Below, piece by piece: positions 40,821-48,556 of a stretch of 64,000 nucleotides of DNA. Location of the stretch: the NCBI RefSeq assembly GCF_009914755.1, contig NC_060931.1, one strand, 5' to 3'. This DNA comes from the human T2T-CHM13v2.0 reference genome, Homo sapiens. Numbering within the stretch: position 1 is the first letter of the stretch; each line of letters begins with the position of its first letter. The position numbers and the translations under genes were made by a program. The notes beneath the pieces were generated by a model. That model had not been told where the DNA came from. It saw nothing but the letters and a program-made list of their open reading frames with translations, and did not search any database.

Positions 40821-41603
40821 GAATGGAGTTGTGGATCTTTTTTTTGGGGGGGGGTGGGGTGGTGGAGAGGTGGTGGGAGGGGGGCGGGGGACAAATCTCA
40901 CTCTGTCACCCAGGCTTGAGTTCCGTGGTGTGATCTCGGCTCACTGCAGCCTCCACCTCCTGGGTTCAAGCAATTCTCCTGTCTCAGCCTCCCAAGTAGC
41001 TGAGACTACAGGCGCCTGCCACCATGCCTGGCTAATTTTTGTATTTTTAGTAGAGATGGGGTTTCACCATATTGGTCAGGCTGTGTCAAACTCCTGACCT
41101 CAGGTGATTCACCCGCCTCGGCCTCCCAAAGTGCTGGGATTACAAGTGTGAGCCACCTCACCCGGCCTGGATCTTTCTGATAAAGGCAACTACCCTTTAT
41201 GGATTATTATTTTTTCCAACTCCCGCGCTTAGTGGTTTAGTGCCCTTTCAGCCGATCCTCTTAGGTACCCCATTGACATAGACAGGCATTAGCTCCATTT
41301 ATCAATGAAGACTGCAAGGTTCACAGAGATGAAGTTACTTGCTTAGCATCACAGGCTGGTAGGCAGCGAGATGAGGACTCCAGAGCTCACCCTTAGCTGC
41401 AGGGCTGTGCCGCCACCACCTCAGCTGGTGTCTTAGCTGTGTGTCGGCACTTCCTGTGAAAACTCTTGCCCTTTGTCCACTGCACTGGATTCTTGCCCTG
41501 AGTACACAGAGGTTAGAGGTCAGTGCAGTCGATTTATGAAGTAGCTCCTGTGGACTGGGCAGTTGTGTTGAGGGGCCGTTGTGCAACTCTTAAGGCATAC
41601 TTC

Positions 41604-42776
41604 TTTTTTTTTTAGTTTTTATCTCAAGTTTTAATGAACAATTAGAAGACAAGTAGTTTGACCTTTATGACTAAGTTTCAATATATTCTTACAGTTTTTA
41701 TATATTTAATATAGGTTTAGAAGCATTTTTTACATAAAAATATTCACAAATAACATTTCTAATTATCATTTAAGTAATAAATATTCTAAAACATATATTT
41801 AAACTAAATAGTGGAAATGCAACACAGTTATGAGTATTCTTATATAAAAGTTAAGCTCTAATAAATGGAACCAGAGAAAGTTGTATAGGAAAACAATATT
41901 TTCCCAACCGACATTAGTTTAGAAACTAATGTTGATTCTTAAGGTATTAAATGATTTCTGAGTCATATAATTGGCAAATTGTCTGTGGCATGGTGTGCCA
42001 TAACCATTATCACTTGTTAATGTGTAAAAATATTTTAAATTGGCAAATAAAAAGCATTAAATGCTTTCTTGAATATTTCATTTTTTGCCACTTCAACCAT
42101 AAAATTTATATAATAAAATATTTACAGAAAATGTTATTGTCAATTATATGAAATATTAGAAAATGACAAACAACATGTTAGACTTAGTGGTACAGAGTAG
42201 ATTGCAATGTAATTCCTGATAACTCTAACCATGTCAATTGGACAGGTCCACAATAGTAGAAAAGGATTTTTAATTGAGCAGTATTAAAATATTTACTATC
42301 TTGGAGACTAGGATCATTTCTTTTTAATCAGGACTAATTCATTAGCAAAACTTTTAAAAAGTATTAATGTGGCAACTTTCCAAGTTACAGTTTTCATATA
42401 TGTCTTATGAATGTTCCTGAGCCCTTTTCATATTTTATTTTCACAGTGTATTTCCTTGCTCATAATCTTCTCCCCAGGGATGGGAGCACCATTCTTGTAA
42501 GACAAATTCTGTGATTATTCCTCTTGAAAAATCTATTATTTTTAGTCCTGACACAGAGCAGGTACTCAAATGTTTGCTGAATGCATGAGCAAATCCAGCT
42601 TTATCTGCTCTTGTCTATAAAGGAAACCTTTTCAATATAGTAACTGGGGTTATTCATATTTTTTAAAGCTCTGATATGCTAATAATTCCACTCCAATGAC
42701 ACATATTACATTAAATTGCAAATATATTTCAAAATACTGTTAACCACAAAGCTTTATCAAATATCCTTCCTACTAC
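41604..42776 (-). mobile_element. Putative L1 3'-transduced genomic segment (~1.16 kb) with its own polyA tail
   Basis: AT-rich block between the L1 polyT (42777-42790) and a second polyT (41604-41613). Minus-strand ATTAAA at 41630-41635. TSD aaggcatacttct (41592-41604) pairs with aaggcatactgct (48408-48420). Confidence 0.82.
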
Positions 42777-43007
42777 TTTTTTTTTTTTTTAAATTTTATT
42801 ATTATTATACTTTAAGTTCTAGGGTACATGTGCACAACGTGCAGGTTTGTTACATATGTATACATGTGCCATGTTGCTGTGCTGCACCCATTAACTCGTC
42901 ATTTACATTAGGTATATCTCCTAATGCTATCCCTCCCCCCTTCCCCCACCCCACAACAGGCCCCAGTGTATGACGTTCCCCGTCCTGTGTCCATGTGTTC
43001 TCACTGT

Positions 43008-46828: not shown

Positions 46829-46891
46829 TATGCTGTTAGCTGGTTATTTTACTCATTAGCTGATGCAGTTTCTTCCTAGCCTTGATGGTCT

Positions 46892-47905
46892 TTACAATTT
46901 GGCATGTTTTTGCAGTGGCTGGTACTGGTTGTCCCTTTCCATGTTTAGTGCTTCCTTCAGGAGCTCTTGTAGGGCAGGCCTGGTGGTGACAAAATCTCTC
47001 AGCATTTGCTTGTCTGTAAAGTATTTTATTTCTCCTTCACTTATGAAGCTTAGTTTGGCTGGATATGAAATTCTGGGTTGAAAATTGTTTTCTTTAAGAA
47101 TGTTGAATATTGGCCCCCACTCTCTTCTGGCTTGTAGAGTTTCTGCTGAGAGATCCGCTGTTAGTCTGATTGGCTTCCCTTTGTAGGTAACCCGACCTTT
47201 CTCTCTGGCTGCCCTTAACATTTTTTCCTTCATTTCAACTTTGGTGAATCTGACAATTATGTGTCTTGGAGTTGCTCTTCTCGAGGAGTATCTTTGAGGT
47301 GTTCTCTGTATTTCCTGAATTTGAATGTTGGCCTGCCTTGCTAGATTGGGGAAGTTCTCCTGGATAATATCCTGCAGAGTGTTTTCCAACTTGGTTCCAT
47401 TCTCCCTGTCACTTTCAGGTACACCAATCAGATGTAGATTTGGTCTTTTCACATAATCCCATATTTCTTGGAGGCTTAGTTCGTTTCTTTTTATTCTTTT
47501 TTCTCTAAACTTCTCTTCTTGCTTCATTTCATTCATTTCATCTTCCATCACTGATACCCTTTCTTCTAGTTGATCGAATCGGCTACTGAGGCTTCTGCAT
47601 TCGTCACGTAGCTCTCGTGCCTTGGTTTTCAGCTCCATCAGGTCCTTTAAGGACTTCTCTGCATTGGTTATTCTAGTTATCCATTCATCTAATTTTTTTT
47701 CAAAGCTTTTAACTTCTTTGCCATTGATTTGAATTTCCTCCTGTAGCTCGGAGTAGTTTGATTGTCTGAAGCCTTCTCTCAACTTGTCAAAGTCATTCTC
47801 CGTCCAGCTTTCTTCCGTTGCTGGTGAGGAACTGCATTCCTTTGGAGGAGGAGAGGCGCTCTGATTTTTATAGTTTCCAGTTTTCCTGCTCTGTTTTTTC
47901 CCCAT
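46892..47905 (-). CDS. L1 ORF1p, uninterrupted 337 aa frame
   Basis: MGKKQSRKTGN...REKG..ARR..YPAKLS..LQKHAKL with no stops. Expression is not shown. Confidence 0.85.
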   Translation of the reverse strand: MGKKQSRKTGNYKNQSASPPPKECSSSPATEESWTENDFDKLREGFRQSNYSELQEEIQINGKEVKSFEKKLDEWITRITNAEKSLKDLMELKTKARELRDECRSLSSRFDQLEERVSVMEDEMNEMKQEEKFREKRIKRNELSLQEIWDYVKRPNLHLIGVPESDRENGTKLENTLQDIIQENFPNLARQANIQIQEIQRTPQRYSSRRATPRHIIVRFTKVEMKEKMLRAAREKGRVTYKGKPIRLTADLSAETLQARREWGPIFNILKENNFQPRISYPAKLSFISEGEIKYFTDKQMLRDFVTTRPALQELLKEALNMERDNQYQPLQKHAKL

Positions 47906-48556
47906 CTTTGTGGTTTTATCTACCTTTGGTCTTTGATGATGGTGACGTACATATGGGTTTTTGGTGTGGATGTCCTTTCTGTTTGTTAGTTTTCCTTCTA
48001 ACAGACAGGACCATCAGCTGCAGGTCTGTTGGAGTTTGCTAGAGGTCCACTCCAGACCCTGTTTGCCTGGGTATCAGCAGCGGTGGCTGCAGAATAGTGT
48101 ATATTGGTGAACCGCAAATGCTGCTGCCTGATCGTTCTTCTGAAAGTTTTGTCTCAGAGGAGTACCCGGCCGTGTGAGGTGTCAGTCCGCCCGTACTGGG
48201 GGGTGCCTCCCAGTTAGGCTACTCGGGTCAGGGACCCACTTGAGGAGGCAGTCTGCCCGTTCTCAGATCTCAAGCTACATGCTGGGAGAACCACTACTCT
48301 CTTCAAAGCTCAGTTGGAAATGCAGAAATCACCCATCTTCTGCATCGCTCACGCTGGGAGCTGCAGACGGGAGCTGTTCCTATTCGGCCATCTTGGCTCC
48401 TCCCCACAAGGCATACTGCTAACTAGTTTTTGGGGCCAGAGGAATGGGTGAAGCAGGAGTTTTTACTTTTTCTAAAATTTGTTGCAAAGCACTTTCCAAC
48501 TCTCTGAGACTGGACAGAATTCTCCTCTACCCACAGATCTGTATCTATGTATCTAT

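What the first reader, a model, noticed from the sequence alone, without database searches (positions are those of the whole stretch)
41592..48420. L1 carries a ~1.16 kb 3' transduction: the true TSD lies 1.2 kb beyond its own polyA
Seen: the sequence beside the L1 5' end (aaggcatactgct, 48408-48420) has no match next to the L1 polyT at 42777. It matches 12/13 at 41592-41604 (aaggcatacttct), directly abutting a second polyT (41604-41613). A minus-strand ATTAAA lies 16 nt from that tail (41630-41635). The block between is sharply more AT-rich than its left flank. The target reads TT/AG(A/C)AG on the minus strand, an L1 endonuclease-type site. Established: read-through of the weak L1 polyA signal mobilises flanking DNA. 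Inference: 41614-42776 is a copy of another locus and tags the source L1, whose 3' flank should begin AAAAGTAGTAGGAAGGATATTTG.
Basis: partly seen in the sequence, partly recalled or inferred. Interest (0 to 1): 0.8.

Follow-up and report, generated by a model that had tools for sequence, protein, structure and literature searches.

The report
Spliced L1 carrying chromosome 3 DNA
An old, spliced L1 retrotransposon beside BRAF dragged 1.16 kb of chromosome 3 sequence along when it jumped, a textbook "3' transduction" that a published catalogue of this very element had missed.

Summary

- **Target-site duplication:** a 13-nt repeat with one mismatch (41592-41604 and 48408-48420) brackets the minus-strand L1 plus 1,163 bp of non-L1 DNA.
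- **Source of the extra DNA:** the block (41614-42776) has exactly one other copy in this assembly, at chr3:79958510-79959667. It differs by 3.7% substitutions.
- **Homology limits:** homology starts exactly at the L1 poly(A). It stops exactly at a second A-run, 16 nt after an ATTAAA.
- **Composition:** the block is 28% GC, like its chr3 neighbourhood. Its chr7 flanks are 48-49% GC.
- **The chr3 site:** it holds no L1 but reads TT/AAAA at the junction. The source L1 is therefore gone, or was never fixed.
the L1 lacks a GT..AG intron in its 5'UTR, so it is a spliced integrated retrotransposed element. It is listed in print as SpIRE(97/622)-67, L1PA4, with "Transduction: No", a 10-nt TSD and 16 untemplated bases. 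The evidence here corrects that entry.

This is ordinary biology and a modest correction. No primate outgroup could be searched, so the direction chr3 to chr7 rests on internal evidence only.

The parts
41592..41604 (-). 3' copy of the target-site duplication (sense strand AGAAGTATGCCTT)
   Evidence: it matches 48408-48420 at 12 of 13 positions. It is the only such match in the window.
41605..41613 (-). Second poly(A) tail, at the end of the transduced RNA. The T-run spans 41604-41613. The five bases 41609-41613 are also present at chr3, so only 4-5 A are untemplated.
41630..41635 (-). ATTAAA polyadenylation signal that was used, 16 nt upstream of the A-run. It is conserved at chr3, where a U-rich stretch follows the cleavage site.
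   Evidence: Four other canonical signals between the L1 and this one were bypassed: AATAAA at 42439-42434, and ATTAAA at 42328-42323, 42274-42269 and 41710-41705.
41614..42776 (-). Transduced block copied from chr3:79958510-79959667. Homology including the shared A/T runs spans 41609-42780.
   Evidence: There are 42 substitutions in 1,149 aligned sites and 8 indels. GC is 27.9%.
42777..42790 (-). The L1's own poly(A), 14 A. Under the proposed reading it was copied from the genomic tail of the source L1. The L1's own AATAAA lies at 42800-42795.
42791..48405 (-). L1 body, 5,615 bp. The subfamily L1PA4 is taken from Larson et al. S1 Table. It runs from the canonical 5' end to the 3'UTR but lacks about 0.5 kb of 5'UTR.
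48308..48309 (-). Intra-5'UTR splice junction, after L1 nucleotide 97 (SpIRE97/622 type).
   Evidence: 9 of the 11 closest relatives carry 484-532 extra nt here. In all 9 the extra piece begins GTAC. In 8 of the 9 it ends ..GACAG.
46892..47905 (-). ORF1, still open: 337 codons plus a stop. It contains the trimerisation, RBD-like and dsRBD-like domains.
43008..46843 (-). ORF2 remnants (endonuclease and reverse transcriptase). They are broken by at least two in-frame stops and two frameshifts.
48406..48407 (-). Two extra bases (sense GT) between the 5' TSD and the L1 5' end.
48408..48420 (-). 5' copy of the target-site duplication (sense AGCAGTATGCCTT). It is preceded by TT, which gives a bottom-strand nick site of TTCT/AA.

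Best explanation
One retrotransposition event, roughly 15-20 million years ago, placed 41605-48407 into chr7. The proposed steps are as follows.

1. An L1PA4 sat on the minus strand of chr3, inserted at a TT/AAAA site next to chr3:79959667. It is no longer in this genome.
2. It was transcribed from its own 5' end.
3. The RNA lost a GT..AG intron inside the 5'UTR (nt 98 to about 621).
4. The RNA ignored the L1's own AATAAA and four further signals.
5. It was cleaved and polyadenylated 16-21 nt after an ATTAAA, 1.16 kb into chr3 flanking DNA.
6. L1 endonuclease nicked chr7 at TTCT/AA, and target-primed reverse transcription copied the whole RNA. This left a 13-nt target-site duplication around L1 plus flank.

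Shown here: the duplication, the two A-runs, the signal, the single chr3 paralogue with exact boundaries, the composition, the splice and the empty chr3 site.

Inferred: the former presence of an L1 at chr3, its loss by drift before fixation, the direction chr3 to chr7, and the date.
For: - **TSD:** 12 of 13 around the composite. 6 of 19,972 random places do as well, and it is the only one of 7 T-runs with a match.
- **Copy number:** exactly 2 places in the 3.1-Gb assembly hold the block. This held for the full query, the 217 nt nearest the L1 and chr3 pieces spanning each boundary.
- **Boundaries:** homology covers window 41609-42780. It stops at the L1 poly(A) and at the second A-run.
- **Polyadenylation:** ATTAAA lies 16 nt before the A-run and is conserved at chr3. 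There it is followed by the most T-rich downstream stretch among the five signals (0.42 T).
- **Composition:** the block is 27.9% GC. The adjacent 1 kb on chr3 is 27.3% and 29.9%. The chr7 flanks are 48.1% and 48.9%, and 0 of 2,195 other chr7 windows are that low.
- **chr3 junction:** on the L1-sense strand it reads GCTT|AAAAGTAGTAGG, an exact TTAAAA. That motif occurs at 48 of 24,158 positions there, or 0.2%.
- **chr7 nick site:** TTCT/AA.
- **Age:** divergence is 42 of 1,149 sites, K2P 0.038. That gives 16-19 Myr at 1.0-1.2e-9 per site per year. It fits the published L1PA4 assignment.
- **Definition:** two A-runs, with the transduced piece beginning at the source's 3' flank, is what Hancks and Kazazian 2016 describe for a 3' transduction (passages).
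Against: - No L1 lies at the chr3 site in this assembly. The source element itself is therefore unobserved.
- The second tail is short: 10 T, of which 5 are also templated at chr3.
- The TSD has one mismatch.
- No sibling transductions were found.
- The direction of copying has no outgroup support, because no primate genome could be searched.
- The only curated published record of this element that I could read scores it 'Transduction: No', with a 10-nt TSD next to the L1 poly(A).
- Repeat-continuity tests across the boundaries were uninformative. All flanks are single-copy.
Confidence: 0.9

Rival explanations
1. Reverse direction. The block is native chr7 DNA and this chr7 L1 is the source. 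The chr3 copy is an 'orphan' 3' transduction: a read-through RNA that was 5'-truncated just inside the L1 poly(A). The L1's own TSD would then be the 10-mer recorded by Larson et al.
For: - Orphan transductions exist; disease examples are listed in Hancks and Kazazian 2016 (passages).
- The chr3 copy retains 4 T at the L1-side boundary and 5 T at the far boundary.
- A 10-nt, 1-mismatch match sits beside the L1 poly(A), and it was accepted in print.
Against: - The block's 28% GC fits chr3 and is unmatched in 2,195 chr7 windows.
- The chr3 flanks share only 6 exact nt (ATGAAG). The best match allowing one mismatch is 9 nt. It is not positioned at the boundaries, and 13% of random places do as well.
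- The implied chr3 nick site has no T-run (my reading of the chr3 flanks).
- This reading needs 16 untemplated nt at the chr7 5' junction. Thirteen of those nt are in fact the repeat found 6.8 kb away.
- Half of the published 10-mer is the A-run itself.
- A spliced 5'UTR has reduced promoter activity (Larson et al. 2018, passages).
Confidence: 0.05
2. Chimeric insertion by template switching or RNA ligation. Reverse transcription began on an unrelated polyadenylated chr3 transcript and jumped to the poly(A) end of a free L1 RNA. No L1 ever sat on chr3.
For: - L1 reverse transcriptase forms chimeras with other RNAs (bioRxiv 10.1101/2025.02.02.635956, passages).
- This would explain why chr3 has no L1.
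Against: - In the passages I read, the described chimeras put the foreign RNA at the 5' side of the L1. Here a complete L1 with its tail lies 5' of the foreign piece.
- The chr3 boundary falls on an exact TT/AAAA endonuclease site, background 0.2% per position. A resident L1 predicts this. A transcript 5' end does not.
Confidence: 0.03
3. DNA-level duplication or filler DNA. A chr3 segment was copied into chr7 by a repair or segmental-duplication process unrelated to the L1. The 13-nt repeat is coincidence.
For: The two copies have no L1 in common, and the second A-run is short.
Against: Three things would have to coincide: one boundary at the L1 poly(A), the other 16 nt after ATTAAA, and a 13-nt repeat bracketing the whole.
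Confidence: 0.02

Closest known systems
L1 3' transduction. Moran et al. 1999, Goodier et al. 2000 and Pickeral et al. 2000 are named from reference lists seen. None of the three was read; Pickeral could not be opened. The description used is from Hancks and Kazazian 2016 (passages).
   Same: The L1 poly(A) is followed by unique DNA, then a downstream signal, a second A-run and a TSD around the composite. There is a single paralogue elsewhere, whose homology begins at the source's 3' flank.
   Different: The source locus is empty of L1 in this assembly. The carrier L1 is also spliced.
SpIRE(97/622)-67, L1PA4, hg38 chr7:140708549-140714306. Source: Larson et al. 2018, PLoS Biol, PMC5860796, S1 Data and S1 Table.
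   Same: It is this very element. The flanking and 5' sequence printed in S1 Data match the window, including the junction and the flank string AGCAGTATGCC.
   Different: The table gives TSD 10, nick site TTTT/G, 16 untemplated nt and 'Transduction: No'. Its inferred empty site joins chr7 DNA to what is shown here to be chr3-derived DNA. My reading is TSD 13, nick site TTCT/AA, 2 extra nt and a 1,163-bp transduction.
SpIRE(97/622)-13, L1PA3, chr1 (Larson et al. S1 Table).
   Same: It is a spliced L1 with a 705-bp 3' transduction and one other copy on another chromosome at 96.1% identity. The authors call it bona fide.
   Different: It is a different locus and a younger subfamily. I did not examine whether its source site is filled.
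Orphan 3' transduction. Solyom et al. 2012 is named from the reference list and table seen; the paper itself was not read.
   Same: It is a copy of L1-flanking DNA with no L1 attached, as the chr3 copy is.
   Different: The chr3 copy has no significant TSD, no endonuclease-type nick site and no tail beyond 5 A. Its composition matches its surroundings.

Membership tests
L1 3' transduction | L1 3' end with its own poly(A), followed by non-L1 sequence in the same orientation | tested here: met
   14 A at 42790-42777, then 1,163 bp that are single-copy apart from the chr3 paralogue.
L1 3' transduction | Second poly(A) at the end of the extra sequence, 10-30 nt after a polyadenylation signal | tested here: met
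   ATTAAA, then 16 nt, then a 10-A run. Only 4-5 of these A are untemplated relative to chr3.
L1 3' transduction | Target-site duplication brackets L1 plus extra sequence, at an endonuclease-type site | tested here: met
   12 of 13, with a random rate of 3e-4; nick site TTCT/AA.
L1 3' transduction | A paralogue of the extra sequence elsewhere, with homology limited to that sequence | tested here: met
   one paralogue on chr3, with boundaries at both A-runs.
L1 3' transduction | A source L1 directly upstream of the paralogue | tested here: not met
   no L1 abuts chr3:79959667 in this assembly. The site is an exact TT/AAAA, as expected for the empty allele of a lost insertion. Other genomes were not available.
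L1 3' transduction | The whole composite is absent, as one unit, from the orthologous site of older lineages | not testable with these tools
   No primate genome is held. The collections cover this assembly, prokaryotes, phages and plasmids.
SpIRE97/622 (spliced integrated retrotransposed element) | Canonical L1 5' end is present, and the 5'UTR lacks a segment that starts after nt 97 | tested here: met
   the first 97 nt are followed directly by sequence that lies about 0.5 kb further on in 9 of the 11 closest relatives. One of the 11 is colinear (itself spliced), and one lacks the first segment.
SpIRE97/622 (spliced integrated retrotransposed element) | The missing segment is bounded by GT..AG in unspliced relatives | tested here: met
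   9 of 9 begin GTAC. 8 of 9 end ..GACAG; the ninth (L025) reads differently at the computed boundary.
SpIRE97/622 (spliced integrated retrotransposed element) | Listed in the defining catalogue | tested here: met
   it is entry 67 of 116.
Orphan 3' transduction (for the chr3 copy) | The L1-less copy is flanked by a TSD, ends in a poly(A) and sits at an endonuclease site | tested here: not met
   the best flank match is 9 nt with one mismatch (P 0.13) and 6 nt exact; only 5 T.

The most novel reading that the evidence does not exclude
The transduction is a barcode for a 'ghost' L1PA4 that once sat at chr3:79959667. It produced fixed offspring and then vanished. Because the offspring is a SpIRE, this is one of the few SpIREs whose parent locus can be named. 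If any living ape still carries the chr3 parent, for example through incomplete lineage sorting, its 5'UTR would show directly whether this SpIRE came from an unspliced parent or from a parent that was itself spliced. Larson et al. infer the former. A 2025 preprint reports one case of the latter.
Probability: 0.1. Interest if true: 0.5.

Novelty: new member of a known kind. Interest (0 to 1): 0.3.

Why it matters
3' transduction is long established, so the mechanism is not news. The value is local.

- It corrects the curated entry for SpIRE(97/622)-67: TSD, nick site, untemplated bases, transduction status and the inferred empty site.
- It adds a second clear case of a spliced L1 that also read through its own terminator.
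- It names the parent locus of a roughly 18-Myr-old insertion whose parent has disappeared.
- It shows that 1.16 kb beside BRAF and NDUFB2 is chr3 DNA. This matters for anyone reading conservation or synteny tracks in this interval.

Tried and rejected
- **Repeat continuity across boundaries.** I asked whether an old repeat runs across the chr3 block boundaries or whether the two chr7 flanks belong to one repeat. All four stretches are single-copy, so the test says nothing.
- **Sibling transductions.** The full block and the 217 nt nearest the L1 found only the two known places. The tool warns that only the best candidates are scored.
- **A nearby L1 3' fragment on chr3** (L002:3955-4115) as the source. 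I rejected it for three reasons.
  - It lies 1.3 kb from the block boundary.
  - The part of the intervening DNA that was searched (L002:2663-3000) is single-copy.
  - The boundary sequences do not fit a GT..AG intron.
- **Older transduction surveys and the L1 age paper.** Szak 2002 and 2003, Pickeral 2000 and Khan 2006 are not held. Goodier 2000 was not looked up. I cannot say whether this transduction is listed in any of them. The L1PA4 age of about 18 Myr is recalled, not read.
- **Search for the 2003 Szak paper by title**. It returned only an unrelated paper.
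Full report
**What is in the sequence**

- The plus strand reads aaggcatacttct at 41592-41604, running into ten T (41604-41613).
- aaggcatactgct lies at 48408-48420. It is two bases from the minus-strand L1 5' end, GGGGAGGAGCCAAGATGG..., at 48405.
- The L1's own tail is 14 T at 42777-42790.
- Between the two T-runs lie 1,163 bp at 27.9% GC. The flanks either side of the composite are 48.1% and 48.9% GC.
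- None of 2,195 other windows of that length in the 64 kb is as AT-rich; the minimum is 31.9%.
- The 13-mer has no other match at one mismatch or fewer in the window. Of seven T-runs of 8 or more upstream of the L1, only the one at 41604 carries a long match to the L1 5' flank. 6 of 19,972 random places reach 13 nt with one mismatch or fewer.

The window's own assembly can be searched. The block (41614-42776) has exactly two places in 3.1 Gb: itself and chr3:79958510-79959667, same strand, covering 1-1163 of 1163.

The same two places were found with the 217 nt nearest the L1 and with chr3 pieces spanning each boundary.

The homology limits are sharp:
- L002:1496-1800 aligns to window 41609-41911.
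- L002:2350-2662 aligns to window 42468-42780.
- So homology begins inside the second T-run and ends four T into the L1 tail.
- Beyond those points the two loci are unrelated.

A global alignment gives 42 substitutions in 1,149 sites (31 transitions and 11 transversions, none in a CpG context) and 8 indel events. K2P is 0.038.

**Direction of copying**

No outgroup was available, so I used internal evidence.

1. Composition. The block's 28% GC matches the adjacent chr3 kilobases (27.3% and 29.9%; the 24-kb median is 33.7%). It is foreign to chr7.
2. The chr7 composite has a 13-nt TSD. The chr3 copy has none. Its best flank match is 9 nt with one mismatch, which 13% of random places reach, or 6 nt exact.
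3. On the L1-sense strand the chr3 boundary reads GCTT|AAAAGTAGTAGG. This is an exact TTAAAA, a motif found at 48 of 24,158 positions there (0.2%; 2.0% with one mismatch allowed). That is what the empty allele of an L1 insertion site should look like. Neither a transcript 5' end nor a 5'-truncation point predicts it.
4. chr3 has 5 T where chr7 has 10.
5. The chr7 nick site is TTCT/AA.

Together these favour chr3 as donor, with a now-absent L1 at chr3:79959667/8 as the vehicle.

**How the RNA ended**

On the sense strand the L1's own AATAAA lies at 42800-42795. It is followed by one AATAAA and three ATTAAA that were passed over. The ATTAAA at 41635-41630 was used, 16 nt before the A-run. At chr3 that signal is conserved. 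It is followed, just past the point where homology ends, by the most T-rich downstream stretch of the five signals (0.42 T).

- The L1 is only 5,615 bp, with a 500-nt 5'UTR. The ORF1 ATG is at 47905.
- I searched the genome with the 5'UTR downstream of position 97 and fetched the 11 best loci other than self (40 scored of 3,080 candidates).
- 9 of these 11 have the first 97 nt lying 484-532 nt further upstream. One is colinear, and one lacks the first segment.
- In all 9 the extra piece begins GTAC. In 8 of the 9 it ends ..GACAG at the computed boundary.
- So the window's L1 lacks a GT..AG intron.
- A search with the first 706 nt found 39 other colinear copies at 90-94% identity among the 40 scored of 6,318 candidates. 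The same junction therefore recurs in the genome.

**What is in print**

Larson et al. 2018 (PMC5860796) describe this class as SpIRE97/622. They report 116 copies in hg38, spanning L1PA1 to L1PA6 (passages).

Their S1 Data prints this very element as clone 67, hg38 chr7:140708549-140714306. Their S1 Table row reads: PA4, length 5612, nick site TTTT/G, TSD 10, Transduction 'No', '5' 1 mismatch, 16 untemp'.

Their inferred empty site joins the chr7 5' flank to AAAAAGTAGTAGGAAGG... That is, it treats the chr3-derived block as native chr7 DNA. Their TSD is the weak match beside the L1 tail, half of which is the A-run. Their 16 'untemplated' bases comprise the 13-nt repeat found here, one base on its 5' side and the two extra bases next to the L1. 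The same table accepts a 705-bp transduction for SpIRE(97/622)-13 on the strength of one other copy at 96.1%. By the authors' own criterion, element 67 qualifies.

I could not open Pickeral 2000, Szak 2002 or 2003, or Khan 2006, and I did not look up Goodier 2000. I do not know whether this transduction is listed in any of them.

**Age**

Pairwise K2P of 0.038 gives about 16-19 Myr at 1.0-1.2e-9 per site per year. That agrees with the PA4 label. The L1PA4 age of about 18 Myr is recalled. Larson et al. give about 27 Myr for L1PA6. The insertion should therefore be shared by great apes, possibly gibbons, and absent from Old World monkeys. This was not tested.

**State of the element**

ORF1 is still open: 337 codons, with all three Pfam L1 ORF1 domains at E-values of 4e-25 to 2e-62. 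ORF2 is in at least five pieces, broken by two in-frame stops and at least two frameshifts. The endonuclease and RT domains remain recognisable.

**Rivals**

- *Reverse direction (chr3 is an orphan transduction from this L1), 0.05.* It fails on composition, TSD and nick site.
- *Template-switch chimera, 0.03.* It explains the empty chr3 site but not the TT/AAAA junction. In the passages I read, the described chimeras carry the foreign RNA on the 5' side of the L1.
- *DNA-level duplication, 0.02.* It needs three coincidences.

**Weak points of the favoured reading**

- The source L1 is unobserved.
- The second tail keeps only 4-5 untemplated A.
- No siblings were found.
- There is no outgroup.

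**Verdict**

This is a textbook mechanism, but it corrects a published curated entry. It also adds that the carrier is a spliced L1 whose parent locus is identifiable and empty.

Noticed in passing
window 47484-47505 (minus strand), inside L1 ORF1: The hub's table gives exons of 'other' BRAF transcripts as 47505-50213, so about 0.9 kb of the sense-oriented L1 5' end is annotated as BRAF terminal exon. The annotated end at 47505 sits directly before an A-rich stretch, GAGAAAAAAGAATAAAAAGAAA. An AATAAA at 47495-47490 lies downstream of the end, not upstream. This looks more like oligo-dT internal priming, or an imprecise end, than a true cleavage site.
   Followed up: partly
L002:3955-4115 (chr3:79960964-79961124), minus strand: A short, internally deleted L1 3'-end fragment with a T-rich tail lies 1.3 kb from the empty source site. 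It is not the source. It does not abut the block, and the searched part of the DNA between them is single-copy.
   Followed up: partly
window 46892-47905 (minus strand): ORF1 has stayed open (337 codons) in an element roughly 18 Myr old whose ORF2 is broken at least four times. This is probably chance; I did not test it.
   Followed up: no
window 48421-48430 and 42772-42781: The bases immediately after the true 5' TSD (sense AAAAACTAGT) resemble the junction of the L1 tail and the transduced block (AAAAAGTAGT). This chance resemblance is what the published annotation took for the TSD.
   Followed up: yes
L027 (chr10:36044016-36044716; colinear): Among the closest relatives, one is itself colinear with the spliced junction. 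Its position is near the start coordinate that Larson et al. give in hg38 for SpIRE(97/622)-80 (PA4, chr10:36008009). The two coordinate systems differ, so the identity is only presumed.
   Followed up: no
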